Assembly: GCA_016200135.1 (NCBI GenBank)
Contig: JACQFI010000115.1
Location: forward strand, 1-64,000
DNA length: 64,000 nucleotides
Reading direction: 5' to 3'
From: Planctomycetota bacterium
Lineage (GTDB): Bacteria; Planctomycetota; SZUA-567; H5-PLA8
Shown here piece after piece: positions 9,079 to 64,000 of the stretch; position 1 is the stretch's first letter, and every line of letters starts with the position of its first letter. Below the pieces are notes generated by a model. The model ran no database searches. It was not told the DNA's origin and saw nothing but the letters and a program-made list of their open reading frames with translations. Made by a program: the position numbers and the translations under genes.

Positions 9079-9093
9079 GTATGTTTCCTCGTT

Positions 9094-11970: not shown

Positions 11971-12096
11971 GTTTCAGGCCCCTTTGCACAGGTGAGGCGC
12001 TCACACCTGCATTGAACGGTGTTACGTCTTCCTTCACATACGCCGCCGGCCGAAGAAGGCGGCCTGGAGAAGTCTTTCCTCGGCCCGATAGTCATT

Positions 12097-12112
12097 TTCT
12101 GTGCTAGAAAAT
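12097..12112 (-). promoter_or_regulatory. Conserved upstream motif TTCTGTGCTAGAAAAT (extended: TCATTTTCTGTGCTAGAAAAT), copy 1, ~127 bp upstream of the 9094-11970 start codon
   Basis: The identical 16-mer recurs at 16905-16920 and 26044-26059, each ~126-129 bp upstream of a long-form propeller paralog. The outer arms TTTTCT/AGAAAA form an inverted repeat. Confidence 0.45.
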
Positions 12113-12179
12113 GCAGCGGACGGCACTGGGCGCCTGCGGGAGGCCGGAACGGCCCGCCATGGTCTTGGAAGCTACGCGA

Positions 12180-13955: not shown

Positions 13956-13971
13956 GTGCGTGCTTTTTCCA

Positions 13972-16779: not shown

Positions 16780-16904
16780 GACTTCAGTCCTTTGCATGAG
16801 CGTCAGAATCACATGTGCTTTAATCACCGCTTCGTCCATTGTCGTATACTCCGGCCAAGGTATGCACAGACCTCTAGAAAGAGAGCCGTGGGTCAATAAG
16901 TATA

Positions 16905-16920
16905 TTCTGTGCTAGAAAAT
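16905..16920 (-). promoter_or_regulatory. Conserved upstream motif TTCTGTGCTAGAAAAT, copy 2 (~126 bp upstream of the 16779 start)
   Basis: Exact 16-mer match to copies at 12097 and 26044. An additional half-site-like CTAGAAA lies at 16873-16879. Confidence 0.45.
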
Positions 16921-16976
16921 TACGGTACTGCCCTCTCGGTTCTCCAGACGGCGAAGCGAGGCGCCGGCGCTCCAAA

Positions 16977-19634: not shown

Positions 19635-19639
19635 GCACT

Positions 19640-21454: not shown

Positions 21455-21496
21455 TTTCTTCTCCTACTACCGCTGGTCCTGTTGCACCCTCCGCCA

Positions 21497-23275: not shown

Positions 23276-23350
23276 CGTGGGTTGTTCCTATCGGCGCTCC
23301 CGGCGCATGGACTGGCCAGGCGGCGATTGCGTGGTTTTTCTTTCGCGCGG

Positions 23351-25915: not shown

Positions 25916-26043
25916 GATGGGTTTTCCTCGTCCGCGTTCATGGTTAGGTGGAAAGAGTTTGCCAAGCCCCTGCATCGTCTTCGACATACGCCACTGTTGG
26001 ACGCCCTGCGGCGAATTCTTGTTGCCTGCTTCTTAAAGTCATT

Positions 26044-51677: not shown

Positions 51678-52205
51678 TTACGGTCGCTGAACCGCCCTCG
51701 TGAGTACGGAGAGGAGATCGGCGCGTTCCCGCAGCGGCACCCAATGGGTCATGCCCGGCGCCCAGACCAGCGAGTTTTCATCGACCTTTCGCGTCCGGCA
51801 CAGTTCTTCCAGTCTTTTGAGATCCATCGGCCCGACCTTTTCGTTTCCAACGGCGACGAACCAGACGGCGCTCCCATCGCCCGGCAACGGCGGGGGCACC
51901 GGAGATTCCTGGACGGTTAGGACCGGAGGGTTCGGGGCCGACAGGGGAGCGGACGGCGGGCCGGCCAGTTTGGCCAACAGCACCGCATGCACCTGTTGCG
52001 CCTGGAGCCGTTCCTGTTTGCGTTCGTCTTCCTCGCGTCTCCGTTCGGCGCGTTCGCGCGCGTCGAGCGTGCGCTGCCGCTGGTAGTGCTGGCGCTTGCG
52101 GTCCGTCTCCTCTTTGAGGTCGGGCATAATGAAAAGAAGAGGGCCGGCCAGGAAAGGGGTAAGGAAGAGGGCGAGGAAGAACCAGGCGATCGCATTCCTG
52201 CCGCG
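51678..52205 (-). CDS. Membrane protein with C-terminal DUF4339 (GYF-like) domain
   Basis: Start chosen at MRGRNAIAWFFLALFL (the ORF extends to 52409). A TM segment and charged coiled-coil precede a C-terminal WFVAVGNEKVGPMDLKRLEELCRTRKVDENSLVWAPGMTHWVPL (DUF4339-like). Confidence 0.5.
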   Translation of the reverse strand, partial: RGRNAIAWFFLALFLTPFLAGPLLFIMPDLKEETDRKRQHYQRQRTLDARERAERRREEDERKQERLQAQQVHAVLLAKLAGPPSAPLSAPNPPVLTVQESPVPPPLPGDGSAVWFVAVGNEKVGPMDLKRLEELCRTRKVDENSLVWAPGMTHWVPLRERADLLSVLTRAVQRP

Positions 52206-52444
52206 CATGCCGGCAAGAACGGCGATGGCGAAATCGCCGGCCAGTAGTGCGAGAACCCAGAATTCTTGCAAGAGGACCTCCTTTCTTAAGCCGCGAGAAG
52301 GGTCAGATAAGCCGTATGGAAGGGGTTCCGGGCAAGGACAGGATAACGGTCCCGTCCGTATGAGCAAATAAGATTCTTGCGATAGCGTAAACGATTCTAT
52401 CGTCCGCATGCTCCCTGGCCGACAACCTATCCGGGGAGCGGCCC

Positions 52445-52846
52445 ATGAGCAATGCAGGCAGGAAGCGCAAAGCGGTCAAGATCGTGCACGACGACGTCAT
52501 ACATGCCTTTGCGACCCGCTTGAAAGAACTTCGCAGCGGGGCGGGCCTGTCCCAGCGGGAGCTGGCGGTGCGGGCGGGCGTGCATCTGACTTATATCAGC
52601 CGCCTCGAACGCGCGGAGGCCGCGCCGGGGCTGGACCTCATGCAGAAGCTATCCAAGGCCCTGGAGGCGCCCTTGTCCGATCTGCTTCCGGCCGAGGCCG
52701 GAAGTTCCTTGTCCATAAAGCAGGCACAGGCACGGCGGCGGCTGGAATCGATCCTGCGCAGGGCGGATGCCGCTACGCTTGGGACGTTGAATGCGCTGCT
52801 GCTCCTGATCGATCAGGAAGTGAGCCGGCACAAGCGCCGTACGTAA
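52445..52846 (+). CDS. XRE-family helix-turn-helix transcriptional regulator
   Basis: LRSGAGLSQRELAVRAGVHLTYISRLERAEAAPGLDLMQKLSKALEAPLSDLL is a canonical Cro/C1-type HTH. Confidence 0.75.
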   Translation: MSNAGRKRKAVKIVHDDVIHAFATRLKELRSGAGLSQRELAVRAGVHLTYISRLERAEAAPGLDLMQKLSKALEAPLSDLLPAEAGSSLSIKQAQARRRLESILRRADAATLGTLNALLLLIDQEVSRHKRRT

Positions 52847-53119: not shown

Positions 53120-53359
53120 CTATAGGCAGGACTCGATCCAGGCGGCTTCGGCGGCGAGGGCTTGCTCGCGGTACTCGTAGGGGCCGAGGACGGCGCCTCC
53201 CAGCGGCGCGAGGTCCACGATCCAGCGGGCATCCGCGGTGGGTTCGACGTGCGAGGCGCGTGAGATCACCGGTGCGCCATGCTCAAGCAACGAGCGCAAG
53301 GCATCGGCGTAAATAAACTGCAGGGATCCGTCCGCACGAAGGAAGATCAGATGTTCCAT
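53120..53359 (-). CDS. Small hypothetical protein (79 aa), last gene of the AAA-DUF1257-DUF2997 unit
   Basis: Good Shine-Dalgarno (AGAGGGAG) 7 nt before the ATG. Starts 14 nt after the DUF2997 stop. Confidence 0.45.
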   Translation of the reverse strand: MEHLIFLRADGSLQFIYADALRSLLEHGAPVISRASHVEPTADARWIVDLAPLGGAVLGPYEYREQALAAEAAWIESCL

Positions 53360-53372
53360 GGCCGCTCCCTCT

Positions 53373-53591
53373 TTAGGGGCCGGCCTGGAGTCGGCGATCC
53401 CGTTCTTCGGTCTGGGTGAACTCGGCGGTCGTGCGGTCCTTCATGGTCTGGCCCAGCGAAGTCTCCAGCCGGCGCGTCAGGTCCCGGCAACCGGGACCCG
53501 CATATCCCTTGACCTGAACCTCAACCGCGCCATCGGCCGAGATCGTGACCTGTATCTGGCATTGCATACGCTTCCTCTCAGCGAAATTCAT
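53373..53591 (-). CDS. DUF2997-family small protein
   Basis: MQCQIQVTISADGAVEVQVKGYAGPGCRDLTRRLETSLG matches the DUF2997 pattern (I-x-V-x-dG-x-v-x-v-x-G-f-x-G-x-x-C). Assigned from memory of the family. Confidence 0.55.
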   Translation of the reverse strand: MNFAERKRMQCQIQVTISADGAVEVQVKGYAGPGCRDLTRRLETSLGQTMKDRTTAEFTQTEERDRRLQAGP

Positions 53592-53599
53592 CGCGCTCT

Positions 53600-53959
53600 C
53601 TAGGCCAGAAGGCGCAGGACGACCGAGCCGTCCTCGCGTTCTTCGCGCCGCACGGCCATGCCCATGCGCTGGGCCTGCCGGACGGCGACGCGCTCGGAAT
53701 AGGTCCTCAAGACCCGGTCCAGCGCTGCTCTCGTGCCCCAGGCGCCGTTGAAGTTGTCGAACTGGACCGTGCCGTCGGCCAGCACGGCCACGGGGTAGCG
53801 CCAGTCCTTGAGCTGAAAAGAGGCCGCGGCCTGGACGCGGCCGGAATAAAGCTTTACTTCCCGGGCGCCGAGGTCGCAGGGCACGCCCAGGTGCCCACAG
53901 ACCTCGGCCAGTATCGGCAGGTCTCTCAGTCGGACCTGCACGGTGGCGATATGACTCAT
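53600..53959 (-). CDS. DUF1257 (Ycf35-like) family protein
   Basis: MSHIATVQVRLRDLPILAEVCGHLG ... FDNFNGAWG resembles cyanobacterial Ycf35/DUF1257. Assigned from memory. Confidence 0.55.
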   Translation of the reverse strand: MSHIATVQVRLRDLPILAEVCGHLGVPCDLGAREVKLYSGRVQAAASFQLKDWRYPVAVLADGTVQFDNFNGAWGTRAALDRVLRTYSERVAVRQAQRMGMAVRREEREDGSVVLRLLA

Positions 53960-53987
53960 GCGGTACGCTCCTTTATGTAGGGACCGT

Positions 53988-55547
53988 TCAAACCTCCACG
54001 GCGACGGGTTGCCGGGACCGGTCGGACTCGAGGCTCAGGCCCGCGGCCACGGCCCGGCCGCTGCGGCACCAGTCGCGCAAGGCCTCGATCTTCTCGGGCA
54101 TCGTCTTGGAGAGCGGCACGGTCTCCCGGAGGGCCTTCAGGACGTCCTGAAGGTCGAGCTTGCGCATCCGGTCGTGGAAGGCCTCGACGAGCGCGTTCTG
54201 GACGGCGGCCTCCAGTTCCGCGCCGGTGAATCCCGCGCAGGCGTGGGCCAGATCGAGCAGGTTGGCCGGCTCGAAGCGCTGCCCGGCGCGTTCCAGGTGA
54301 ATGCGCAGGATCTCCGCGCGGGCCTCGGTTCCCGGGAGGTCCACGGCGAAGATCTCGTCGAATCGGCCTTTGCGCAAGAGTTCCGGCGGCAGCGCGCCGA
54401 TCTCGTTGGCCGTCGCCACGACGAAACACTCGGCCTTCTTGTCGGAGAGCCAGGTCAGCAGGGCCCCGAAGACGCGCTGCGCCGTGCCGCCGTCGTGGCC
54501 GCCGCCGGGACCGAAGGCCTTCTCGACCTCGTCCACGAGGACCACGCAGGGCGCGATCGCCTCGGCGGTCCGAATGGCCTGCCTTAAATTCGACTCGGAC
54601 TCGCCCACCAGGCTCCCGAAGAGCCGCCCGGCGTCGAGCCGGACCAAGGGCAGCCGCCACGCGGCGGCGACGGCCCGCGCTGCGAGGGTCTTGCCCGTCC
54701 CCGGAACGCCGACCAGAAGCACGCCTTTGGGCGGCAGGATGCCGGCGGCCCGCGCCGCGTCGCCGAAGAGACTCGTGCGCTTGGCGATCCAACTTTTAAG
54801 GTTCTCCAGGCCGCCGATATCCGCCATGCCGTGCTCGGGCTCCTCGTATTCGAGCACGCCGGTGCGGCGGACGATCTGGCGCTTCTCGCGGATCGCGAGG
54901 CGGATCGCGTCCGGGCCCAACGCGCGATGATTGACCAGTGAGAGCGCGACGAGGTTGCGCGTCTCGTCCAGGGTGAGCCCCTGGCAGGCGCGCGCGAGAG
55001 CGGGCAGCGTGGCCTCATCGACGGTGACTTTTCCGGCGAGTTGCTCCCGGTAGAGCACGGCGAGGGACTGCACGTACTCGCAGAGTTCGCCTCGGGTCGG
55101 AAGCGGCAGATCGGCGATGAAGAGATCCGACTGCAGCTCCGCGGGAATCCGCCAGTCGCGGCCGACCAGGACCAGGGCCTTGCCCGAGCCGCGGGCATGC
55201 GCGAGAGCTTCCCGAAGCGCGCGCACGAAGATCGGGTTGCTAAGCTCGGCCCAGGGATCGAGCAGGGCCAGGACGACATTCTCCTGGGTCTTCCGAAAGG
55301 CATTCAGCGCCTCGTCCAACCCACACGGATCCTGGAGCGGACGCTCGGGTTCTTCGTCGTCCAGGGACAGGCGCTGCAATCCCGAGGCCGAGGACCAACG
55401 CCACAGTACGCGCGGAACCAGCTGGCCTGACAAGGCCTGGACGGCTTGGCGCAGGGCCACGATGGCCCGGGCCTCTTCGAGGGTGCGCAGATGAACTCCG
55501 GGGAGCCTCGCTTTCAAGGCCGCCAGGAGCGCATGGATCGCTTGCAT
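53988..55547 (-). CDS. Classical AAA+ ATPase (CDC48/FtsH-clade AAA domain; Ycf46-like) with ~250-aa N-terminal domain
   Basis: Walker A GVPGTGKT, Walker B VVLVDEVEK, and the second region of homology. The start was chosen at MQAIHALL (the ORF opens at 55652). A competing Arg-rich frame was rejected. Confidence 0.8.
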   Translation of the reverse strand: MQAIHALLAALKARLPGVHLRTLEEARAIVALRQAVQALSGQLVPRVLWRWSSASGLQRLSLDDEEPERPLQDPCGLDEALNAFRKTQENVVLALLDPWAELSNPIFVRALREALAHARGSGKALVLVGRDWRIPAELQSDLFIADLPLPTRGELCEYVQSLAVLYREQLAGKVTVDEATLPALARACQGLTLDETRNLVALSLVNHRALGPDAIRLAIREKRQIVRRTGVLEYEEPEHGMADIGGLENLKSWIAKRTSLFGDAARAAGILPPKGVLLVGVPGTGKTLAARAVAAAWRLPLVRLDAGRLFGSLVGESESNLRQAIRTAEAIAPCVVLVDEVEKAFGPGGGHDGGTAQRVFGALLTWLSDKKAECFVVATANEIGALPPELLRKGRFDEIFAVDLPGTEARAEILRIHLERAGQRFEPANLLDLAHACAGFTGAELEAAVQNALVEAFHDRMRKLDLQDVLKALRETVPLSKTMPEKIEALRDWCRSGRAVAAGLSLESDRSRQPVAVEV

Positions 55548-55684
55548 ATAAAGGATCTCCTGAGGTTCTGACGTGGGTTGATGGAGGTGCGACGACCGAA
55601 TGGCGATCCGGTTCCTGCGTGGCTTGCCAACACGCGCGGCTTCAGTATTCATTGCCGCATTCCAACCATAAAGGAGGGGGAAAC

Positions 55685-55843
55685 ATGGCGGCCAGACGGG
55701 GCTCTAAGAACGCGGGCAAGAGGCCGTCCAGCGTAAAGCGCGGCCGGAAGGCGATCTTCACGCCGGCACAGAAGAACGTTCTGGAGCGGATGATCCGGTC
55801 CTCGCTTAAGGGGGAACTGAAGACGCTGGTGAAGTCGCTGTAG
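55685..55843 (+). CDS. Small basic protein (52 aa) on the opposite strand, wedged between two minus-strand genes
   Basis: Strong SD AAGGAGGGGG 6 nt upstream of the ATG at 55685. Sequence MAARRGSKNAGKRPSSVKRGRKAIFTPAQKNVLERMIRSSLKGELKTLVKSL. Confidence 0.45.
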   Translation: MAARRGSKNAGKRPSSVKRGRKAIFTPAQKNVLERMIRSSLKGELKTLVKSL

Positions 55844-55897: not shown

Positions 55898-56944
55898 CTA
55901 AGCGCTCTTCTGCGTTACCGCCTGCACGTTTTCCTCTACGATGGGGGTCGGCACCGCCTGCGATGTCACCAGCGCCGGAAGCTCGACCAGAGCCTGGTCT
56001 AGAGCCGGCAGGACGGCCTGGACCCTCGGCGAAGAGACGGCCAGCAGGTCGCCGTCAAAAGCCGTGCGCACGATCTGTCCCAAGGCTCCGCCAAGCCTGC
56101 CGGCATGCGCCAGTGTGGCCATCACGTCCAGGTCCGCCTTGGCCACCAGGGCCAGATCAAGCTCCGAGGTGCGGACCTTCGCAAGCAGACCGGCGGCGTC
56201 GGCGGAGAGGCTGCGCGCGAAGACTTTGACCCGATCGAGGTGCTCCGTGAGCGCCTTCCAGCGGTGGCGCGCCTGGCGCTTGGTGAGCCCGTCTTCGGCG
56301 CGTGCTTTTTGCATCTCCTCGAAAAGCCGGACGAGGTCCTCGCGCACGGACTGCACCAGCACCTCCAAGGCCTTCTCGCGGACCAGCTCGTTCTCCAGGC
56401 CCACGGGAACGATTAAGCACTCGCCGCCCAGTTCGCTCACGAACCGGGCCACGCGCTGGAGCAGCCCGCGGTTCTCCCGCGGCACGAAATAGACCGCGCC
56501 GGCATGGCGGAGACTCAACAGGCCTTTCTGGCGTTCGAAGATGCGCCGGACGACCTTCGAGACGTCGCTGGGCAGATAGAGCGCGCCGTAGCGGGCAAAG
56601 AGCGCCTGGACCTTTCCGAACAGCGCCGCGTTGTCGCCGCCCACCGTCTGGGTCTGCTTGTCGAACCAGAACGCGGCCTCGAACTCGTAGCCCAGCCGCT
56701 CCTGCTCGCGGTAGCGGCGCGAGAGCTGCCAGGTCCAGCGCGCCTCGGTCTCCTCGACCTCGTCGATCAGGCCGTCGGCGCGCATGCGGTTTTTGGCCCG
56801 GACGAAGCAGAAACGCTTGGCGAGATCGCGGGCGAACTGCGCGTCCAGGCCGGTGCACTCCAGGGCGCTGCGCACGCGTTCGACGGTCACGGTGGGCAGC
56901 CGGTCCAGGAAGAATATAGAACCCATCGATGGCGAGATTTCCAT
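55898..56944 (-). CDS. Hypothetical protein (~349 aa) in the Ubl-cassette island
   Basis: Balanced composition. Start chosen at MEISPSMGSIFFL. No recognised motif. The alternative frames 56157-56858 and 56302-56919 are Arg/Pro-rich and were rejected. Confidence 0.5.
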   Translation of the reverse strand: MEISPSMGSIFFLDRLPTVTVERVRSALECTGLDAQFARDLAKRFCFVRAKNRMRADGLIDEVEETEARWTWQLSRRYREQERLGYEFEAAFWFDKQTQTVGGDNAALFGKVQALFARYGALYLPSDVSKVVRRIFERQKGLLSLRHAGAVYFVPRENRGLLQRVARFVSELGGECLIVPVGLENELVREKALEVLVQSVREDLVRLFEEMQKARAEDGLTKRQARHRWKALTEHLDRVKVFARSLSADAAGLLAKVRTSELDLALVAKADLDVMATLAHAGRLGGALGQIVRTAFDGDLLAVSSPRVQAVLPALDQALVELPALVTSQAVPTPIVEENVQAVTQKSA

Positions 56945-57419: not shown

Positions 57420-58169
57420 TCAGGAACCGCGCCGCGCCAACTCGACGATCAGCGGCGGGAAGTCGCGTTCGCCTTTCTCTTCCAGAAACGCTTCCCACAT
57501 GCGCTCGAGCATGTCCGTGTCCACGGTGACCTCTGCGCGGAAACGCTCGCTTACATAGTCGAGGAAGCCGTCACAGTCCGAGCCGCAGATCCATTCCCGA
57601 TCCACCACCTCGGACTCCGCGTCGTCCCGAGCCTCCTGCCGGCGGTGGCGTTCGGCCTGGCGTGCGGCGTTGCGCCGCTCGCGAGCCTGGCGCACCCGCT
57701 TCGAGAGGCCCGGTGCGTTCGCGTCCTCGTCCGGTTCGACGTCTTCCGCGAGAGGACCGTCGTACGTGCCGTAGGTCTCCTCGTACGCGTCCTCGCATTC
57801 CTCGCAATAGGACCGGCAGTCGTCCCTCACGTAGTCGTAGTCGGGAAGGTCCACGCCGTCGTCCTTCCAGTCGGGATAGACTTGGTTCGTGAACTCGATC
57901 AGAAGCGCGCGGACGTGGGGACTCGGGATCTCGTCGAAGAGGTCGGCATCGAGATGGTAGTCGTCGGAGAACGCGAAGGTCGGCAGCCCGCAGCGCTTGC
58001 GGACGATTCCTTCCATAAATAGGACATACTCGCCGATCCAGGTCCCGTCGGCCTCCTCCGAGCCGTGGTCGTCGCGGGAGTCCACTACCTCCAACTTGGG
58101 GACGTCGACGTGCGGCAAGCCCAGTCGCTGCTTCTTCAGAGCCAGGGCGCTGAGCACGAAACAGGCCAT
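57420..58169 (-). CDS. Highly acidic hypothetical protein (249 aa, Asp/Glu-rich with a Cys-containing segment) immediately downstream of E1-like gene
   Basis: SD AAGGAGG 5 nt upstream of the ATG. DYDYVRDDCRSYCEECEDAYEETYGTYDG; the C-terminal half is basic/acidic mixed. Confidence 0.5.
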   Translation of the reverse strand: MACFVLSALALKKQRLGLPHVDVPKLEVVDSRDDHGSEEADGTWIGEYVLFMEGIVRKRCGLPTFAFSDDYHLDADLFDEIPSPHVRALLIEFTNQVYPDWKDDGVDLPDYDYVRDDCRSYCEECEDAYEETYGTYDGPLAEDVEPDEDANAPGLSKRVRQARERRNAARQAERHRRQEARDDAESEVVDREWICGSDCDGFLDYVSERFRAEVTVDTDMLERMWEAFLEEKGERDFPPLIVELARRGS

Positions 58170-58181
58170 GCGTCCTCCTTG

Positions 58182-58901
58182 TCACGCGTTGACCGGAACG
58201 AGCGCCATCGCGCAGTTCCCGGCGTCGAAATAGACTTCCTGCGGCACTACGGTGTTCTTGCGGCGCCCATGGCGCGCGCCATGGGTCCAGAGCGCGTGAA
58301 AGGCCGCCAGAAGACTGGCCGCGGCCAGAAAATTCGTGACGAGCAACTGCGTCTCGCCTTGTGCGACCCGCTCTTCGCAGCCAGCCTCCGCGCGGTCGCC
58401 TTTCAGGCTGTGGGCGACCTCGGGGTGGCGGGCGAGCAGGGGCACCGTCAGGTCCTTCGCTCCGCGGCGCAACGTGACGTGGACGTTCCCGTCCAGGGTC
58501 TCGTTGCCGGACGACAGGACATAGACCTCGCGCAACTCCGCCGCGCGCCGGGCGATCAGCGCCCGCGCCGGATGATTGTCGACGGCCACCAAGATCAGGG
58601 CACGTTCACACACGGCCGCGTGGACGTTTCCAGATGTGACGTACTCGGCATGAACGCGCAGCCGCAGGGCCGGATAGCGGCCCGTGAAAATCCCCGCCTG
58701 CCCCAGCGCCTTGTTGGCGCCGAGGTGTTCGAAATCAAACTCCTGGCGCGCGGCGTTGCCCGCGCTGTAGCGGTCGCCGTCCCAGAGGTGGATCGCGCCC
58801 TGAAAACGCTCCGCATTCAAGAAGCGCAGCAACGGTCCAAGTAGCCACGACCCGATCCCGCCGCAGCCGATCAGGGCCATACACTCAACGTTTCGAACCA
58901 T
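58182..58901 (-). CDS. ThiF/MoeB-family E1-like adenylyltransferase (minimal ubiquitin-activating-enzyme-like)
   Basis: The start is refined to MVRNVECMALIGCGGIGSWLLGPL (Rossmann GxGxxG), then DGDRYSAGNAARQ (nucleotide-binding Asp/Arg). SD GGGAGGGA precedes the ATG. Overlaps the JAB gene by 17 nt. The long N-terminal ORF extension (to 59381) was rejected as Arg/Ser-rich. Confidence 0.75.
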   Translation of the reverse strand: MVRNVECMALIGCGGIGSWLLGPLLRFLNAERFQGAIHLWDGDRYSAGNAARQEFDFEHLGANKALGQAGIFTGRYPALRLRVHAEYVTSGNVHAAVCERALILVAVDNHPARALIARRAAELREVYVLSSGNETLDGNVHVTLRRGAKDLTVPLLARHPEVAHSLKGDRAEAGCEERVAQGETQLLVTNFLAAASLLAAFHALWTHGARHGRRKNTVVPQEVYFDAGNCAMALVPVNA

Positions 58902-59724
58902 GGGTCCCTCCCTCGAGTTCCAGGTGCTCGGCCGCCCAGAGCCGCTCTTCGATCTCCTCCCGCATCTGCTCCAGGTGTTCGAGGTACTCCTCGCGGCTCG
59001 CGAAGGGTTCTCCGAGCAAATCGCACCAGCGTTCGTCCGTCTCCGTGCCCAAAGGCACGGGGGTGAATAACTCCCGTTCCAGCACAGGGGCGGGGCTGAC
59101 CTGTGCGAGCCACGCCGGGTCAGGCGCCGGCAGGTCTTCCGCTTCCAGGACCTCGGCCAGGTCCGTCTTGAACGCGCGCCCGGCCAACATCCAGCGGCAG
59201 GCATACGAGCGGATGGGCTTGTCCAGATTCCCGACCGTGATGTGCAAACCATCGAAACCGCTCTCGTCGGCATCGTCCGTGCCGGAGTGAAAGGCCTGGA
59301 TGTCCGCGTGCGAATGGATGGAGCCGAAGAGCTGGAATCCGGCCGGTGCGTTGGGCCGCGCGTGCAGGTCGTACTCCACACGCAGTCCGCGCACCTGTTG
59401 CGGCGGAACGATCACGCGCCACGCTTTCACGTTCGGGTTGCAATAGAGCAGGACGACCGCCTCGCTCTGATAACGCCGATAGACCTCGCCAAAAAAGCCC
59501 TCCACCGCGCGAAAGAGCTTTAACGGCAGCAGCGGCACATGCAGCTCCGCTTCTTCCTTGAGATCGGCCAGCGACGGGATGCCGTCGAGCTTCACGCAGG
59601 CGGTATAGAATTCGTTGCGCACGAGCTTGAAGAGGCCGTTCGCGCCGGAAGCGAAACAGACGGGCGCGTCGGGCAACGCGACTTCAGCTCCCGGCAGCGG
59701 CTTGGGTACCGGATATATCTGCAT
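58885..59724 (-). CDS. JAB/MPN (JAMM) metallopeptidase, deubiquitinase-like
   Basis: Intact JAMM motif HSHADIQAFHSGTD (H-x-H-x7-S-x2-D), with upstream acidic residues. Start refined to MQIYPVP. Confidence 0.8.
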   Translation of the reverse strand: MQIYPVPKPLPGAEVALPDAPVCFASGANGLFKLVRNEFYTACVKLDGIPSLADLKEEAELHVPLLPLKLFRAVEGFFGEVYRRYQSEAVVLLYCNPNVKAWRVIVPPQQVRGLRVEYDLHARPNAPAGFQLFGSIHSHADIQAFHSGTDDADESGFDGLHITVGNLDKPIRSYACRWMLAGRAFKTDLAEVLEAEDLPAPDPAWLAQVSPAPVLERELFTPVPLGTETDERWCDLLGEPFASREEYLEHLEQMREEIEERLWAAEHLELEGGTHGSKR

Positions 59725-60025
59725 GGCTGCCCGCCTTTCTCTTTTTTGAGGGCTTTGTTTCGTTCGGGAGGCGCTGCAAAGCATCCTCCAATGCCTGGAA
59801 CCGTTTGCCCTTCCGGCGCACGGACTCCCGCAAGGTCACCGCGCCGCGCGCGTAGTAGGTGAACTGAGCGCAGAGAACTTGCCCAGGCGAGCCGGGAAGT
59901 TGCGCGAGGGTTTCCAGGTCCGCGTCGAGCAGATGGTTCAAAAATTCTTCCAAGGACCTCGTCCCGGCAGCTGGACAACGGCACAGGATGGCGTTCAGGT
60001 CAGGGCTCTTGGCCACGGGATCCAC
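59684..60025 (-). CDS. Candidate small ORF (GTG start, ~113 aa) between the E2-like and JAB genes; unknown, possibly a second small partner protein
   Basis: Open frame with an SD-like GGAAAGGAGG just upstream. It overlaps the JAB start by 40 nt. No recognisable motif. Confidence 0.25.
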   Translation of the reverse strand: MDPVAKSPDLNAILCRCPAAGTRSLEEFLNHLLDADLETLAQLPGSPGQVLCAQFTYYARGAVTLRESVRRKGKRFQALEDALQRLPNETKPSKKRKAGSHADISGTQAAAGS

Positions 60026-60035
60026 CCTCCTTTCC

Positions 60036-60761
60036 TTATCCAGGGTGTTCGGCCAGGAATTTCAGCATCTCGCCCACGTGGGCGCGCAGATGCTGCTTGA
60101 GTTCAAGCTGCGCGTGGAACTCGGGATCTTTTCCAGAGGCCAGCGCCCAGTCTTCCAGGCTCTTGATCGCCAGGCCCTCGAAGGAAGGCAGGAGGTCGCC
60201 GTTCCAGGCCGATTCGAGCACCTGGCGGATCAGGGCCGTGACGCGCACGCCGGCCGGCGCCTTGGTCTCTTCCAGGCTCAGGTTGCCCATGCAGAGGGCG
60301 CCGTTGCCCTCCTCGTAGATATTGGGCATGGGGAGGCGGAAGAGAGGCGTGTCGTGACCGGTTTCGAGAACGGGCGTGCGCGTCGCCGTCAGCCACAAAT
60401 CCTGGATCGCGGCGCACTCCGCACTCGGCGCCTGACTGGTCCGGCAGAACCAGAGCGTGCGCGGCCAGGAGAGCGTGAGTTCGTTGGCCTCGTGGCCGCC
60501 GCGCACCGCGTTGTACTGGACCACCTGAAGGCCCGGCGGGCGTTCGATCAGATAGATCGTGCGCGTGCGTTTATTCTCGTCGCAGGCCCGCGAGAACAGC
60601 ACGCAGCCCTCGGGCAGGAACCCCGAGTCCACGGGCTGCGTGCGCGCGAGTTCGGCCAAGAAGTCCGTCGTCGTGGCTTCCCGTTCCACGACCGTCCGTT
60701 CCAGGCGCACCAAGTCGCCCTCGATCAGGATGCGCTTTCCTTCCGATGTGACCGCGGCCAT
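60036..60761 (-). CDS. UBC-fold E2-like ubiquitin-conjugating-enzyme homolog
   Basis: PMPNIYEEGNGALCMGNL closely mirrors the eukaryotic E2 active-site signature HPN-I-x3-4-G-x-IC-L (catalytic Cys after the HPN-like turn). SD AGGAGG precedes the ATG. Confidence 0.65.
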   Translation of the reverse strand: MAAVTSEGKRILIEGDLVRLERTVVEREATTTDFLAELARTQPVDSGFLPEGCVLFSRACDENKRTRTIYLIERPPGLQVVQYNAVRGGHEANELTLSWPRTLWFCRTSQAPSAECAAIQDLWLTATRTPVLETGHDTPLFRLPMPNIYEEGNGALCMGNLSLEETKAPAGVRVTALIRQVLESAWNGDLLPSFEGLAIKSLEDWALASGKDPEFHAQLELKQHLRAHVGEMLKFLAEHPG

Positions 60762-60847: not shown

Positions 60848-61066
60848 TTACGCGGCGCCTTTCTCGCCGGCCACTTTGACGAACTCGACGCTCGCGCCTT
60901 CGGGCACGCGCGCGTCCTCCGAGACGGGCGCGCCGTTGATGCGCGGTTGCGCGTTGGCCGCTACGCCGAGCAGGTCGCCGACCTCGTCGCGGACCTCACG
61001 AATCGTCTTCCCTGCCAAGCTGTCCAAATTGGTGCTGTTAACGCCACAACGAACGCAGATGCTCAT
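60848..61066 (-). CDS. ThiS/MoaD-like beta-grasp ubiquitin-like protein (72 aa)
   Basis: MSICVRCGVNSTNLDSLAGKTIREVRDEVGDLLGVAANAQPRINGAPVSEDARVPEGASVEFVKVAGEKGAA has the ThiS/MoaD pattern (M-I-V-x-x-G ... TV-x-L-x-x-LG ... V-x-NG-x-V ... L-x-eGD-Ve-f). SD GGAGGG lies 8 nt upstream of the ATG at 61066. The C-terminus is not Gly-Gly and may be processed by the JAB peptidase. Confidence 0.55.
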   Translation of the reverse strand: MSICVRCGVNSTNLDSLAGKTIREVRDEVGDLLGVAANAQPRINGAPVSEDARVPEGASVEFVKVAGEKGAA

Positions 61067-61158: not shown

Positions 61159-61443
61159 TCAGCGGGACGAAACGGCCTTCCGCTTGGGACGACGAATAAG
61201 GCGACGCAGCCATTCTCCCGGCGGCAGGCTGAGCGGCTGCGTGCACCCGTCGCAGAGCAGGAGGATCGGCGCCACCGGCTCGAACGCCTTCGGCATCGGT
61301 CGGAAGGCCTTCCAACGCTTCGGGGAGAGCTGCTGCACCGGATGAACGCGTAGCGTGGCGACCAACACCACGAAGCCCGTGCGATTCCCGCATACCGGGC
61401 ACCGGACCGGACCTCGGGCCCTGGGAGCGAACGAATTTTTCAT
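61159..61443 (-). CDS. Small zinc-ribbon protein (94 aa)
   Basis: C-P-V-C ... C-D-G-C gives four Cys in ribbon spacing. SD GGAGAT 7 nt upstream. Confidence 0.4.
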   Translation of the reverse strand: MKNSFAPRARGPVRCPVCGNRTGFVVLVATLRVHPVQQLSPKRWKAFRPMPKAFEPVAPILLLCDGCTQPLSLPPGEWLRRLIRRPKRKAVSSR

Positions 61444-61486: not shown

Positions 61487-61705
61487 TCAGGTGGGGACCG
61501 CCAGGCGTCGGCGCGTCCGGGGGCGGGCGAGTTCCTCCGCGAGCAGTTCGACGATCTCTTCCAGGGCCTCGTCCACGGCCAGGCCCTCCCCCACCCCTTC
61601 GAGGGCCCGGTCCACGGCGGCGACCTCGGTGACGATCTGCCGGATCCGGCCGAAGGCCTCGTCGCGGCGGCGGGGTGGCATCTGGAGTACGTTGAGCGTG
61701 CGCAT
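61487..61705 (-). CDS. Small acidic helical hypothetical protein (72 aa)
   Basis: SD AAAGGAG 9 nt upstream of the ATG at 61705. Confidence 0.35.
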   Translation of the reverse strand: MRTLNVLQMPPRRRDEAFGRIRQIVTEVAAVDRALEGVGEGLAVDEALEEIVELLAEELARPRTRRRLAVPT

Positions 61706-61810: not shown

Positions 61811-62629
61811 TTAGCGGCCCAGACACCGGACCCGGAACGGACAGCTCGTGCAGGGCCAGCCCTCGCGCCTGGGGAAGGCGCGTGCCCGGATCGCCGTCCA
61901 GGTGGCCTGGACCTGTTCCTTCAGGCGCGCGGTCTCCGGCGCGCCGACCGGCGTCTCCAGCACCTGCACCCTGGGCTGGCGGGCCTTGGTGAGCACGACG
62001 AAGCGGGCCCGGACCTCCCGCACGCCCAGCGTCCGCGCCCAGGGCGCGAGACCTTCCACGTAGATCACCAACTGCGAGACCTGCTCGCGCAGCTTGCTCT
62101 CGTTCCAGGCCGCACGGGCGGTCTTCAGATCGGTCAGGAGCAACGTGTCGCCCTCGCGTTCGATCAGGTCCAGCCGCGCGTGGATCGGCGGGGCGTCCGG
62201 CAGGAGCCGGAAGCGTGCCTCCTCCTCTATCCCTAAGACCTCCCGGGCGCAGCATTCGGGCCGTTCCAGATGCTGGCGATAGGCAGCAAGCATCCGGCGG
62301 GCCTGGTCGCTCAGGGACAGCGGGCCTTCGCTCGGCCCGTAGACGATCTGCGGGCGCGCGCGCGCCTGCTCTCCCCAGGCGCCCTCGTAGATCGCGGTCA
62401 GGGCCTCGGCGCTCGGAAGCCCGCGGCCGAGCAGCCGTGCCTCGTGCAGGCGTTCCGTGGCCGTATGGAACGCCGTGCCGAAGAGTAGCGCCGCAGGCGC
62501 GCGTTCCTCCGGTGCGCGTTCGAGATAACGGTAGAAATATTTTTGTGGACACTGCGCGTAGGTTTGCAACGCGGACCACGAAGTATGGTCGACGTCGGCG
62601 GGGGCGTCTCTTGTTTTCGCATTCGACAT
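61811..62629 (-). CDS. PD-(D/E)xK nuclease, Cas4/AddB-like with Fe-S cysteine cluster
   Basis: One N-terminal Cys (YAQCPQKYF) plus a C-terminal CTSCPFRVRC, which is the Cas4/DUF83 4-Cys arrangement. Central acidic/Lys residues (DLIE, DLK) are consistent with a PD-(D/E)xK core. Start refined to MSNAKTRD with SD GGAGAG. Confidence 0.6.
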   Translation of the reverse strand: MSNAKTRDAPADVDHTSWSALQTYAQCPQKYFYRYLERAPEERAPAALLFGTAFHTATERLHEARLLGRGLPSAEALTAIYEGAWGEQARARPQIVYGPSEGPLSLSDQARRMLAAYRQHLERPECCAREVLGIEEEARFRLLPDAPPIHARLDLIEREGDTLLLTDLKTARAAWNESKLREQVSQLVIYVEGLAPWARTLGVREVRARFVVLTKARQPRVQVLETPVGAPETARLKEQVQATWTAIRARAFPRREGWPCTSCPFRVRCLGR

Positions 62630-62684
62630 GCGTGGCTCTCCTTTTTCAGTCGGGTAGGAAAAGACGGCAGGCTTCGGGAAGACT

Positions 62685-63116
62685 TCAGGGGTGGGTGCCG
62701 CAGGCGGCCAGGCGTGACTTGAGATCGTCGATCGCCTTAGAGGCACCGACGATGCTGAGCGGGGCGGCCTCGGTCACGCCCTGCTCGGCCAGGAACGGCT
62801 CGGGCTCAAGCCCCAGGTCCTTGCAGAGGGCCCGGATCGCCCGCAACTGCGCATTGGTCGCCGGCGCGATGCGCCGTGTCCCATGCCCATTGCCGTTGCC
62901 GTTTCGAACGGCGGTGACCGGTGGAGAGCTGTTCTCTGGCAGCGAATGGGCCGCACCCTCGGACGAGATCGTCTCTTGGCGATCGTGATCATGTGCCGGT
63001 TGTTTCGCGAGGACGCTCAATTGCTCTTGGATACATCCGTCCAGGAGCGTGTAGAGTTTGCGCAGCTTCCGTTGTATGGCCGCGGGCTTCGCGGTCCCTG
63101 CGAGTTCCAGTTCCAT
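62685..63116 (-). CDS. Hypothetical protein
   Basis: Open frame. Start chosen at MELELAGTAKPA (the ORF extends to 63197). An AT-rich putative promoter patch lies upstream at 63281-63330. Confidence 0.35.
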   Translation of the reverse strand: MELELAGTAKPAAIQRKLRKLYTLLDGCIQEQLSVLAKQPAHDHDRQETISSEGAAHSLPENSSPPVTAVRNGNGNGHGTRRIAPATNAQLRAIRALCKDLGLEPEPFLAEQGVTEAAPLSIVGASKAIDDLKSRLAACGTHP

Positions 63117-63372: not shown

Positions 63373-64000
63373 TCAGGCGGCGGCCCAGGAAGCGCCCCAG
63401 GCGTGGGAGCTGAGCCGTAATGCGTACGTCAAGGCATGCAGCACGTCGTCCTGGCCGCCACTGGGACAGACGAAGCGATGGCGCCGGGCGGCGTTGTCAT
63501 AAAGCGCGGTCTCGTGCCAGAGCTCTTCGAGGCATTTCCCGCAGTCCGTGAGCCTGGGGAAGCGGATTTTCTTTTTCTTGATCCGCGTAAACACTTCGCC
63601 GATCCATGCAGTGCGATCGACGGTCCAGCGGTACATGCTCCGAGAAAATTGGGGACTCGACTCCGTATCCGCATACATCAGGCCGTAAAGCCCTAGGCTG
63701 CGGTGGGCCTCCTGGCAGTTCATGAGCAGCAGGCGGTTCAGAACGGAGCCGTTGCCGTTCGCGTCGGCGGCCACCAGATCGATCCCGAGTGCGATTATCA
63801 AGTCCTTGGCCCGCGCCAGAGCGTCATCGAAACCGTCGGCGATCGGCATCGACTCCAGATGGAGGACCTGAAAGATCCCCTGGGCGTCGTGGGCGCCCAC
63901 CACGAACGCCGTACGCGAGTTCACGCCGCCGGACCAGTCGATGCCCAGCACCAGGGACTGCAGCATCAGGTTCACACCGCTCAACTTCTGCCGCTCCCGT
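63373..64000 (-). CDS. Partial CDS (3' part; continues beyond window) with RNase-H-like nuclease domain resembling phage terminase large-subunit C-terminal / RuvC-like resolvase
   Basis: LVLGIDWSGGVNSRTAFVVGAHD resembles the first strand and acidic residue of terminase/RuvC nucleases. The frame is still open at the window edge (no stop upstream of 63984). Confidence 0.35.
   Translation of the reverse strand, partial: RERQKLSGVNLMLQSLVLGIDWSGGVNSRTAFVVGAHDAQGIFQVLHLESMPIADGFDDALARAKDLIIALGIDLVAADANGNGSVLNRLLLMNCQEAHRSLGLYGLMYADTESSPQFSRSMYRWTVDRTAWIGEVFTRIKKKKIRFPRLTDCGKCLEELWHETALYDNAARRHRFVCPSGGQDDVLHALTYALRLSSHAWGASWAAA

What the first reader, a model, noticed from the sequence alone, without database searches (positions are those of the whole stretch)
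53120..55547. AAA+ ATPase - DUF1257 - DUF2997 - small ORF module co-oriented with and 2.6 kb downstream of the Ubl cassette
A CDC48/FtsH-clade AAA+ ATPase (Walker A GVPGTGKT, Walker B VVLVDEVEK) with a large N-terminal domain is followed within 30 nt by a DUF1257 (Ycf35-like) gene, 8 nt later a DUF2997 gene, and 14 nt later a 79-aa ORF with its own SD. The AAA/DUF1257/DUF2997 triad resembles a stress-induced triad that I recall from cyanobacteria (Ycf46-like AAA with Ycf35-like partners), but its biochemical role is unknown. Its placement on the same strand as an E1/E2/JAB/Ubl cassette suggests a proteasome-like logic: Ubl-tagging coupled to an AAA+ unfoldase/segregase. Aravind and colleagues noted such logic for some prokaryotic Ub-like operons, but it has not been shown experimentally for this domain combination.
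Basis: partly seen in the sequence, partly recalled or inferred. Interest (0 to 1): 0.72.

Follow-up and report, generated by a model that had tools for sequence, protein, structure and literature searches.

The report
Phage AAA+ module beside ubiquitin-like cassette
The four genes are real and belong to a phage-borne ATP-driven machine of unknown function, which usually occurs without the neighbouring ubiquitin-like tagging genes, so the proposed "tag-then-unfold" partnership is possible but unproven.

Summary
On the minus strand sit a Cdc48-D1-like AAA+ ATPase (53988-55547), a divergent DUF1257 gene (53600-53959), a DUF2997 gene (53373-53591) and a conserved 79-aa gene (53120-53359), spaced 28, 8 and 13 nt apart.

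- The module's most constant partner is the DUF6744 gene just upstream (55898-56944).
- A probable plus-strand ORF separates DUF6744 from the AAA gene.
- The region is the end of a prophage-like element in a Planctomycetota MAG.

Comparative loci give an asymmetric picture:
- The DUF2997/DUF1257/DUF6744/AAA block recurs in about 15 distinct phage or integrated-element contexts. About 10 of these lack any Ubl/E2/JAB/E1 genes.
- The wider AAA-DUF2997 neighbourhood in 80 species genomes and in cultured Rhizobium phages never carries the cassette.
- This particular cassette type (Ubl-E2-x-JAB-E1-249aa) was always followed by the block wherever contigs ran far enough.

The module is therefore self-sufficient. 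The cassette is a facultative, repeatedly lost or gained upstream insert in one lineage. Functional coupling is allowed (about 0.2) but not shown. The biochemical role is unknown, and my best guess is a protein-remodelling hexamer with small cofactors.

The parts
53988..55547 (-). AAA+ ATPase, 519 aa: N-terminal ~244-aa family-specific domain (weakly RFC/AAA-like) followed by one active Cdc48-D1-like AAA domain and lid
   Evidence: phrog_8638 matches full length at 1.2e-133.
53600..53959 (-). 119-aa divergent DUF1257 (Ycf35-like) protein
   Evidence: Pfam is sub-threshold. Transitive link to DUF1257. AF2 model pLDDT 87 with no PDB analogue.
53373..53591 (-). 72-aa DUF2997 protein
   Evidence: Pfam 4.7e-14. 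phrog_23133 2.4e-8.
53120..53359 (-). 79-aa lineage-specific protein, last gene of the module
   Evidence: No family hit. Homologues at the same position in L002, L009, L091 and L095.
55898..56944 (-). DUF6744-like protein (348 aa), the constant upstream partner of this AAA clade
   Evidence: Pfam 25.7 bits against a cut-off of 27. Homologues carry PF20529. Linked to the AAA gene in 19 loci and in L113/L114. AF2 pLDDT 80. Only uncharacterised viral structural relatives.
55682..55843 (+). 52-aa basic ORF on the opposite strand with an AAGGAGGG RBS, between DUF6744 and AAA
   Evidence: No homologue found in any fetched locus and no family hit.
57420..58169 (-). 249-aa acidic, Cys-rich protein that always follows the E1 in this cassette type
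58182..58901 (-). E1-like ThiF protein, 239 aa, single adenylation domain
   Evidence: Pfam ThiF 1.3e-13. PRTRC_ThiF 47.8 bits, below cut-off. Start site.
58885..59724 (-). JAB/JAMM peptidase (279 aa)
   Evidence: Prok-JAB 25.9 bits. PRTRC_A is sub-threshold. HSHxxxxxxxSxxD motif seen.
59684..60025 (-). 113-aa gene between E2 and JAB. A 110-aa gene occupies the same position in L002/L091; homology was not tested.
   Evidence: No family hit.
60036..60761 (-). E2-like protein (241 aa) with conserved Cys in NGALCMGNLS
   Evidence: Prok-E2_D E=0.015. Alignment A5.
60848..61066 (-). Ubl (72 aa) ending ...AGEKGAA
   Evidence: 53-60% identical to small genes at the same position in L002, L091 and L094.
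61159..61443 (-). 94-aa CxxC...CxxC protein. This backbone gene directly abuts DUF6744 in cassette-less relatives.
61487..61705 (-). 72-aa backbone gene, present with and without the cassette
61811..62746 (-). PD-(D/E)XK exonuclease (phage recombination type)
   Evidence: Pfam PDDEXK_1 6e-32. phrog_69 exonuclease.
63373..63984 (-). C-terminal part of a terminase large subunit; the gene runs off the window
   Evidence: phrog_675 8.8e-9.
52445..52846 (+). Cro/CI-type HTH regulator, convergent with the module, at the border with host metabolic genes
   Evidence: Pfam HTH_3 1.1e-13. Phage repressor PHROGs.

Best explanation
The four genes are the 3' part of a self-contained, phage- or mobile-element-borne module built from four families: DUF6744, a Ycf46-like AAA+ ATPase, DUF1257 and DUF2997. 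This sub-lineage adds a 79-aa protein.

Inferred mechanism:
- The ATPase forms a ring. Its catalytic motifs are intact, its active domain resembles Cdc48 D1, and its pore loop is aliphatic (SLVG).
- The ring remodels or extracts a protein target.
- The small DUF1257 and DUF2997 proteins bind each other and act as cofactors, adaptors or regulated substrates. They are apparently fused in some genomes.
- DUF6744, an alpha/beta domain plus a long helical hairpin, is the clade-specific adaptor.
- The element deploys the module with its early replication and recombination genes.

The Ubl-E2-113aa-JAB-E1-249aa cassette is a separate six-gene unit. It is inserted at the 5' boundary of this module in one Planctomycetota element lineage. 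It is dispensable for the module and is probably an independent mobile-element cassette of the PRTRC/Bil kind. The JAB peptidase needs no AAA partner to be explained, because it could trim the Ubl's C-terminal ...G-AA.

Shown: gene content, homology and the co-occurrence patterns. Inferred: ring formation, remodelling activity, cofactor roles and independence of function.
For: Block without cassette:
- L009/L010, about 81% identity in the AAA N-domain, with the '94' gene abutting DUF6744.
- L095, L005 and L006/7/11.
- Phage-like contigs L096-L098, L113 and L114. Their genes include ThyX, peptide deformylase, ligase, primase, RusA and a polyvalent protein.

The module moves as a unit:
- The DUF1257-like gene lies either downstream of AAA or just upstream of DUF6744, but is present in 18 of the 19 loci with DUF6744.

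Wider family:
- AAA with DUF2997 in 31 of 80 species genomes, none with the cassette.
- Cultured Rhizobium phages carry AAA-x-DUF1257-DUF2997 next to DnaB/PolA.
- Candidate DUF1257-DUF2997 fusions: the DUF2997 half scores E 3e-6 to 8e-4, the DUF1257 half only 0.005-0.03.

The cassette is a unit with clean boundaries:
- The trees place UBL+ elements in three lineages interleaved with ubl- ones.
- In the window, a 350-nt gap with an opposite-strand ORF precedes the AAA gene.

ATPase motifs are intact. The closest solved relatives are Cdc48/p97.
Against: - No biochemical or genetic data exist for any of the four families.
- DUF6744 and DUF1257 have no informative structural relatives, so the adaptor roles are guesses.
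- The pore loop lacks an aromatic residue, so threading is uncertain.
- The cassette of this exact type was never seen without the block downstream. That would be unexpected if the two were wholly unrelated, unless it reflects shared descent in one element lineage.
- In L094, L101 and L102 the whole run from Ubl to AAA is contiguous on one strand, with the only spaces between called genes a few hundred bases at most. This is compatible with one operon.
Confidence: 0.55

Rival explanations
1. The cassette and the AAA module form one pathway. Targets, or a module subunit, are tagged with the Ubl by E1/E2. They are then recognised through DUF6744, DUF1257 or DUF2997 and unfolded or extracted by the Cdc48-like ATPase, with the JAB peptidase recycling the Ubl. 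This would be a viral analogue of Ub-Cdc48 or Pup-Mpa.
For: - Every locus of this cassette type that extends far enough has 249aa-(DUF2997-like-DUF1257-like)-DUF6744-AAA immediately downstream on the same strand. These are the window, L002/L091/L092, L094, L101, L102 and L108.
- The arrangement persists across E2 divergence down to about 46% identity, and across a rearrangement of the small genes.
- The AAA domain is closest to Cdc48/p97.
Against: - About 10 distinct elements keep the block without the cassette.
- The wider family never has the cassette.
- More distant cassettes lack such an ATPase: L109, and PRTRC and Bil from what is known of them.
- No Ubl-binding or Cdc48-N-type domain was detected. 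The N-domain gives only weak RFC-like matches.
- No protease partner is present.
- In the window, an opposite-strand ORF and a 350-nt gap separate the units.
- The sample of independent cassette-bearing lineages is small (3) and confined to one clade, so shared descent explains the linkage equally well.
Confidence: 0.2
2. The AAA module is a prophage-carried conflict system, acting in superinfection exclusion, anti-phage defence or anti-defence rather than in the element's own life cycle. It sits at the repressor/integrase-proximal end, where such cargo accumulates.
For: - In the window the module is the last block before a CI-type repressor gene and host genes.
- In L091 it abuts the integrase.
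- Opposite-strand cargo genes are inserted inside it: an NYN nuclease gene in L002/L091 and a 262-aa gene in L010.
- The AAA domain resembles IetA/IteA anti-phage ATPases at domain level.
Against: - None of DUF6744, DUF1257-like, DUF2997 or the 79-aa protein matches any PADLOC model, and the IetA hits cover only the generic AAA domain.
- No IetS-type protease is present.
- The block is conserved inside the early/replication regions of phage-like contigs, all genes co-directional (L096-L098, L113, L114), and in cultured Rhizobium phages next to DnaB/PolA. That is atypical for defence cargo.
- Chromosomal relatives in Bacillaceae and cyanobacteria look like stress or housekeeping genes.
Confidence: 0.15
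3. The module matures or inserts a metal or Fe-S cofactor. The AAA+ would act as an assembly chaperone and DUF2997 as a small metal-binding partner.
For: - DUF2997 has a conserved Cys. The phage-type DUF2997-like proteins end in a His-rich tail.
- Cyanobacterial DUF2997-ycf35 genes sit next to the ferredoxin gene fed7.
- In many bacteria the AAA-DUF2997 pair travels with an NrdG-like radical-SAM activase.
Against: - This rests purely on context.
- The window's version has neither the radical-SAM gene nor a ferredoxin gene, and its DUF2997 lacks the His tail.
- No metal-binding fold was identified.
Confidence: 0.1

Closest known systems
Cyanobacterial/plastid Ycf46 (slr0374) stress operon slr0373-slr0374-slr0376, and the DUF2997-ycf35(DUF1257)-fed7 cluster
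   Same: An AAA+ protein of about 500 aa with a long N-terminal domain plus a single classical AAA domain. Small DUF1257 and DUF2997 partners. Function unknown in both (PMC7496141, PMC4284462).
   Different: Here the module is on a prophage-like element in a Planctomycetota MAG and is linked to DUF6744 and a 79-aa gene. Its DUF1257 member is too divergent for Pfam's threshold. Orthology to Ycf46 itself was not tested. Only one locus whose record title says 'Cyanobacteria' was recovered by the N-domain profile (L049).
AAA-DUF1257-DUF2997 genes of Rhizobium phages RHph_I4 and vB_RleS_L338C
   Same: A phage-borne AAA ATPase (557 aa) about 36% identical to the window's. It is followed on the same strand by DUF1257 and DUF2997 genes that pass Pfam thresholds, in the early/replication region.
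   Different: A 212-aa unknown protein sits between AAA and DUF1257. No DUF6744 was detected at E <= 10. There is no 79-aa gene and no Ubl cassette.
Cdc48/p97 (D1 domain) and other classical-clade AAA+ unfoldases (PAN, FtsH)
   Same: Walker A/B, sensor-1, SRH arginine fingers and lid. The best PDB matches fall at Cdc48/p97 residues about 200-445, E about 1e-64. From my own knowledge I recall the pore-loop segment GSLVGESESNLR resembling p97 D1's KLAGESESNLR.
   Different: Single active AAA domain. No double-psi-barrel N domain, no second ATPase ring and no protease domain or partner. The N-terminal domain is family-specific and only weakly RFC-like.
Bil (BilABCD) anti-phage ubiquitin-like conjugation systems
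   Same: Gene set and order Ubl-E2-JAB-E1 (PMC11601596).
   Different: The E1 is 239 aa with one adenylation domain, not the IAD-AAD-CYS architecture described for BilD. No PADLOC, NCBIfam or PDB sequence match to Bil components. Two extra genes (113 aa, 249 aa). The cassette is carried by a phage-like element rather than a host defence island.
PRTRC (ParB-related, ThiF-related cassette) of plasmids and ICEs
   Same: A small ThiF-type E1 and a JAB protein give their best NCBIfam hits to PRTRC_ThiF and PRTRC_A. The context is a mobile element. One relative (L094) has a ParB_N gene nearby.
   Different: Both scores are far below the curated cut-offs (47.8 against 144.75; 31.5 against 101.8). No other PRTRC proteins were detected. 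There is no ParB gene in the window.
IetAS (IteA/IetA ATPase + IetS protease) anti-phage system
   Same: The AAA domain matches IetA/IteA models (5.7e-26 in PADLOC; 81.8 bits in NCBIfam).
   Different: The match covers only the generic AAA domain and lies far below the NCBIfam cut-off of 510. No serine protease partner. Different N-terminal domain.

Membership tests
Classical-clade AAA+ ATPase (Cdc48/FtsH/PAN group) | Walker A GxxGxGKT, Walker B hhhhDE, sensor-1 Asn, SRH with two Arg fingers, C-terminal helical lid | tested here: met
   GVPGTGKT, VVLVDEVE, ATAN and RKGRFD are present. Pfam AAA 110 bits and AAA_lid_3 32.5 bits, both above cut-off.
Classical-clade AAA+ ATPase (Cdc48/FtsH/PAN group) | Aromatic-hydrophobic-Gly pore loop 1 used for substrate threading | tested here: not met
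   The pore loop reads S-L-V-G with no aromatic residue, and is conserved as FGSLVGESE in the close clade. It resembles my recollection of p97 D1 (KLAG).
Pfam DUF2997 (PF11211) | Score above the gathering threshold of 24.1 bits | tested here: met
   52.4 bits, E 4.7e-14, residues 13-58.
Pfam DUF1257 / Ycf35 (PF06868) | Score above the gathering threshold of 22.2 bits | tested here: not met
   14.7 bits, E 0.037, C-terminal 44 residues only. None of 13 close homologues carries the Pfam label.
Pfam DUF1257 / Ycf35 (PF06868) | Homology by profile (transitive) to bona fide members | tested here: met
   A profile of the 119-aa family finds 944 representatives at E<=1e-3. 21 of 58 sampled hit PF06868 at E<=1e-3, best 2.3e-9.
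Pfam DUF6744 (PF20529) | Score above the gathering threshold of 27 bits | tested here: inconclusive
   The window protein scores 25.7 bits. The identical database protein and most of its 20 homologues carry precomputed PF20529.
Ycf46-type AAA+ (cyanobacteria/plastids) | Orthology to slr0374/ycf46 with the same N-terminal domain | not tested
   No Ycf46 reference sequence was available. The N-domain profile recovers relatives in 157 stretches of species genomes, among them one record titled 'Cyanobacteria bacterium' (L049).
Bil (BilABCD) | Ubl, E2, JAB and E1 encoded together in this order | tested here: met
Bil (BilABCD) | [quoted passage not shown] | tested here: not met
   The E1 is 239 aa with a single ThiF domain. 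It has no PDB sequence match.
PRTRC | ThiF and protein A scoring above the TIGR03736 and TIGR03735 cut-offs, with ParB and proteins B-F present | tested here: not met
   47.8 bits against 144.75, and 31.5 bits against 101.8. No other PRTRC models hit.
IetAS | IetA-type ATPase above cut-off together with an IetS serine protease | tested here: not met
   IteA scores 81.8 bits against 510. No protease gene lies in the neighbourhood.
Ubl-directed AAA+ unfoldase pathways (Ub-Cdc48, Pup-Mpa, SAMP-PAN) | Consistent co-occurrence of tagging enzymes and the ATPase | tested here: not met
   The ATPase block occurs without the cassette in about 10 of about 15 distinct related elements and in all 80 wider genome loci. 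The cassette of this type always has the block.
Ubl-directed AAA+ unfoldase pathways (Ub-Cdc48, Pup-Mpa, SAMP-PAN) | A tag-recognition domain on the ATPase or an adaptor | tested here: inconclusive
   No known Ubl-binding domain was found. The N-domain is weakly RFC-like. DUF6744 and DUF1257 have no characterised structural relatives.
Ubl-directed AAA+ unfoldase pathways (Ub-Cdc48, Pup-Mpa, SAMP-PAN) | Physical or functional dependence between conjugation and ATPase | not testable with these tools
   This requires genetics or biochemistry.

The most novel reading that the evidence does not exclude
A lineage of Planctomycetota phages or integrated elements encodes a complete ubiquitin-like conjugation cassette that feeds a Cdc48-D1-like AAA+ machine, with DUF6744, DUF1257 and DUF2997 as cofactors. 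This would be a virus-encoded 'tag and extract' pathway analogous to Ub-Cdc48. The far more widespread untagged version of the machine (phages, Bacillaceae, cyanobacterial Ycf46) would represent the ancestral, tag-independent state.
Probability: 0.2. Interest if true: 0.85.

Novelty: new variant of a known kind. Interest (0 to 1): 0.5.

Why it matters
- The AAA/DUF1257/DUF2997 neighbourhood is one of the widely conserved "known unknowns". It includes the plastid and cyanobacterial ycf46/ycf35 genes, and the literature searched here gives no established mechanism.
- Phages carry it as a portable block, here with a fourth constant partner (DUF6744) that appears in none of the papers searched. 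This gives a compact, transferable version to study experimentally.
- Bacterial ubiquitin-like systems (Bil, Bub, CBASS Cap2/3) are an active field. None of the papers consulted here describes one paired with an unfoldase.
- If the lineage-specific adjacency found here reflects function, it would be the first prokaryotic-virus analogue of ubiquitin-directed Cdc48 action.
- If it does not, the loci still show that this cassette type is phage or mobile-element cargo rather than host defence. That bears on how such cassettes should be interpreted.

Tried and rejected
- Known defence system: PADLOC and NCBIfam gave only generic AAA (IetA/IteA), ThiF (Cap2-like E1-E2, PRTRC) and JAB (PRTRC_A) hits below cut-offs. 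Rejected as a member of IetAS, Bil, CBASS, 6A-MBL or PRTRC.
- Structure-based function for the 119-aa protein: pLDDT 87. No PDB hit at E<=1e-3. Weak TBP-like and RNase H3 N-domain resemblances are treated only as a lead.
- Is the ~156-aa membrane protein next to the AAA gene in Bacillaceae a DUF1257? hhalign gave E 2.6e-3 but probability 11%. The broad DUF1257 HMM hits only 2 of 28. Left open.
- Cluster O mycobacteriophage AAA (33% identical, full length): no DUF1257 or DUF2997 neighbours were recognised, so this was uninformative.
- IMG/VR scans with DUF6744, the E2 and the 249-aa protein found nothing. The AAA N-domain found 3 distant loci.
- Promoter and terminator scans of 52.8-57.5 kb gave no signal above shuffles. 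Transcription units therefore remain inferred from gene spacing and strand.
- The window has no tRNA gene. The 243-aa gene left of the HTH regulator has a GYF_2 domain and is not an integrase. The element's left end is therefore placed only approximately, at about 52.4-53.1 kb.
- PDB sequence searches with the E1, JAB and E2 found no solved relatives.

Full report
**What is there**

The finding lies on the minus strand. Reading 5' to 3' on that strand, the genes are:
- AAA+ ATPase, 55547-53988 (519 aa)
- 119-aa gene, 53959-53600
- 72-aa gene, 53591-53373
- 79-aa gene, 53359-53120

The gaps are 28, 8 and 13 nt, and each gene has an SD-like motif. All four genes have the GC3 bias of coding sequence in this 64% GC genome. 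All four have homologues at the same relative positions in other contigs, so none is a chance ORF. The ATPase is 100% identical to a protein annotated in a 67.8-kb Planctomycetota MAG contig.

**Family assignments**

*ATPase.*
- It has Walker A GVPGTGKT, Walker B VVLVDEVE, sensor-1 Asn and RKGRFD arginine fingers.
- Pfam AAA and AAA_lid_3 both pass. The best NCBIfam hits are CDC48, PAN and FtsH, all far below equivalog cut-offs.
- The best solved relatives are Cdc48/p97 at residues about 200-445, which I identify from my own knowledge as the D1 domain.
- The pore loop reads SLVG, with no aromatic residue.
- The first ~244 residues form a family-specific domain. It gives only weak RFC-like matches (E about 0.05).
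- The whole protein matches phrog_8638 end to end (1.2e-133).

*Small proteins.*
- The 72-aa protein is a clear DUF2997 (52.4 bits).
- The 119-aa protein fails Pfam's DUF1257 threshold (14.7 bits against 22.2).
- A profile of its family reaches 944 cluster representatives. Of 58 sampled, 21 hit DUF1257. It is a divergent member.
- The 79-aa protein has no family.

1. The 2.6 kb between the E1 gene and the ATPase gene holds a 249-aa acidic Cys-rich gene and a 348-aa DUF6744-like gene (55898-56944).
2. Between DUF6744 and the ATPase gene lies a 350-nt gap. It carries a plus-strand 52-aa ORF with an AAGGAGGG ribosome-binding site.
3. The whole minus-strand block is the end of a prophage-like element:
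   - a terminase large-subunit fragment at the window's right edge, a PD-(D/E)XK exonuclease, and a CI-type HTH regulator at the left border;
   - host metabolic genes beyond that border (HpaB, a nitrilase-family gene, DUF2848).

**The block recurs as a phage or mobile-element module**

Contigs encoding close homologues of the ATPase or of DUF6744 repeatedly carry the same four families. DUF2997 (or a His-tailed DUF2997-like protein), a DUF1257-like protein, DUF6744 and the ATPase were found together in 19 fetched loci and in two more.

Two gene orders exist:
- DUF6744-AAA-DUF1257-DUF2997-79aa: window, L002, L009, L091, L095.
- DUF2997-like-DUF1257-like-(37 aa)-DUF6744-AAA: L006, L094, L096, L097, L101, L102, L108 and probably L113. 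L098 and L114 are looser variants of this order.

The contexts are of two kinds:
- Integrated elements, with a tyrosine integrase next to nuo genes in L091 and a serine recombinase in L095.
- Phage-like contigs with co-directional genes for ThyX, peptide deformylase, NDK, ligase, DnaJ/Hsp70, primase, RusA and a polyvalent protein.

**The wider family**

- An N-domain profile recovered 80 loci from species-representative genomes. DUF2997 lies within 10 kb of the ATPase gene in 31 of them.
- In many of these the ATPase also travels with a small membrane protein, a ComEA-like HHH protein and an NrdG-like radical-SAM activase, in permuted order.
- Candidate DUF1257-DUF2997 fusions occur in four loci. 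The DUF1257 half scores only E 0.005-0.03.
- Cultured Rhizobium phages RHph_I4 and L338C encode AAA-x-DUF1257-DUF2997 beside DnaB and PolA. Both small proteins pass Pfam thresholds there.
- The literature confirms a stress-induced slr0373-slr0374(ycf46)-slr0376 operon and a DUF2997-ycf35-fed7 cluster in cyanobacteria. Function is unknown for both.

**Relation to the Ubl cassette**

The cassette is Ubl (72 aa, ending GAA), E2-like (conserved Cys), a 113-aa gene, JAB, a 239-aa single-domain ThiF-type E1 and the 249-aa protein.

*It is absent from most relatives of the block.*
- It is absent from all 80 wider genome loci. One unrelated ThiF lies 5 kb away in L086.
- Among elements with the DUF6744-AAA block, it is absent from about 10 distinct contexts: L005, L006/7/11, L009, L010, L095, L096, L097, L098, L113 and L114.
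- In L009, L010 and L095 the backbone gene '94' abuts DUF6744 exactly where the window has the six cassette genes. The cassette therefore behaves as a unit with clean boundaries.

*It is present, always directly upstream and co-oriented, in a few.*
- These are the window, the L002/L091/L092 type, L094, L101, L102 and L108.
- A reverse survey seeded with the E2 found 11 metagenome loci. Every one that runs far enough downstream (L101, L102, L108) has the block.
- L103 and L104 have an interruption after JAB. The distant L109 has no ATPase.

*Trees.* NJ trees of the ATPase and DUF6744 place cassette-bearing elements in three lineages, interleaved with cassette-less ones inside one subclade. This implies at least three losses or at least three gains.

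**Interpretation**

The block does not need the cassette. Within this limited and phylogenetically narrow sample, the cassette was never seen without the block. That asymmetry fits two readings:
- an accessory cassette that plugs into the machine;
- plain co-inheritance in one element family.

I favour independence, with coupling at about 0.2, for four reasons:
- The cassette moves as a clean unit.
- JAB is already explained by the need to trim the Ubl's C-terminal GAA.
- No tag-recognition domain or protease partner is detectable.
- In the window the two units are separated by an opposite-strand ORF.

Against full independence, in L094, L101 and L102 the run from Ubl to AAA is contiguous on one strand, with only short spaces between called genes.

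**Mechanism**

None of the four families has a known activity.
- Structure prediction gave confident models for DUF6744 (pLDDT 80) and the DUF1257-like protein (pLDDT 87).
- Neither has an informative solved relative.
- DUF6744 has only uncharacterised viral structural relatives.

I therefore commit, at moderate confidence, to a ring-forming remodelling ATPase with DUF1257 and DUF2997 as an interacting cofactor pair and DUF6744 as a clade-specific adaptor. The element would express it with its early genes.

Two alternatives remain:
- a prophage conflict system, suggested by its position next to repressor or integrase genes and by the inserted cargo genes;
- a metal or Fe-S maturation role, suggested by the His-rich tails and by ferredoxin and radical-SAM neighbours elsewhere.

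**Comparison with known systems**

- The cassette is not a Bil member. Its E1 lacks the IAD-AAD-CYS architecture described in PMC11601596.
- It does not reach the PRTRC cut-offs.
- The ATPase is not IetA.
- The word 'AAA' does not occur in Iyer et al. 2006, so the cited precedent for Ubl-plus-AAA logic was not verified.
- No paper in the searchable library mentions DUF6744.

**Verdict**

The feature is a new phage-borne variant of a conserved but uncharacterised AAA/DUF1257/DUF2997 module, with a lineage-specific and functionally unproven adjacency to a ubiquitin-like cassette.

Noticed in passing
L027:9950-13649, L079:8080-11887, L039:9483-13240, L062:8820-11608: In Bacillaceae, Prevotellaceae, Selenomonas and Pseudomonas fluorescens the homologous AAA gene travels with four other families in permuted order. 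These are DUF2997, a small membrane protein, a membrane-anchored ComEA-like HHH protein and an NrdG-like small radical-SAM activase. The set is not named in PADLOC or NCBIfam.
   Followed up: partly
L062:8820-9449; also L060:8813-9469, L069:6580-7230, L086:7905-8558: Proteins of about 210 aa have a DUF1257-like N-terminus (weak, E 0.005-0.03) and a DUF2997 C-terminus (E 3e-6 to 8e-4). These candidate fusions suggest that the two small proteins interact.
   Followed up: partly
L094:9292-9504, L101:5047-5343, L102:13585-13881, L006:7908-8123, L097:9148-9354: In the phage-type gene order, the ~70-aa protein upstream of the DUF1257-like gene is only weakly DUF2997-like (E 0.04-1.6). It ends in a His-rich tail such as HRHDHAHHQHEHDH.
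   Followed up: partly
window 55682-55843 (+); L010:1731-2516 (-); L002:10086-10628 (-): Opposite-strand genes are inserted at different points inside the module. The window has a 52-aa basic ORF, L010 a 262-aa gene, and L002/L091 an NYN-domain nuclease gene. This suggests a hotspot for cargo insertion.
   Followed up: partly
window 63373-63984 (-): This ORF matches the C-terminal part of a terminase large subunit (phrog_675, 8.8e-9). The gene runs off the window's right end, so the right ~11 kb of the window is phage-derived.
   Followed up: partly
window 57420-58169 (-): A 249-aa acidic protein with conserved Cys pairs (CRxYCxxC, WxCxSDCD) always follows the E1 gene in this cassette type. 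It has no family or structural match and could be a target, an adaptor or an E3-like factor.
   Followed up: partly
L103:1722-8923 and L104:10084-14149: Two metagenome contigs carry the same cassette type. L103 has about 6 kb between JAB and E1. In L104 no E1 was found in the 3 kb after JAB. An insertion may have disrupted the cassette.
   Followed up: no
L114:1601-2491: A DUF6745 gene (the Pfam family numbered next to DUF6744) lies 2 kb upstream of the DUF2997-DUF6744-AAA block in a phage-like contig that also encodes a 2094-aa ART-PolyVal protein.
   Followed up: no
window 51678-52409 (-): The first gene left of the element's HTH regulator encodes a 243-aa protein with a C-terminal GYF_2 domain. 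It is not an integrase, and no tRNA gene occurs anywhere in the window.
   Followed up: partly
window 6220-25987 (-): Several very long minus-strand ORFs (952, 958, 591, 918 and 878 aa) with coding-type GC3 lie in the first 26 kb. They were not examined.
   Followed up: no
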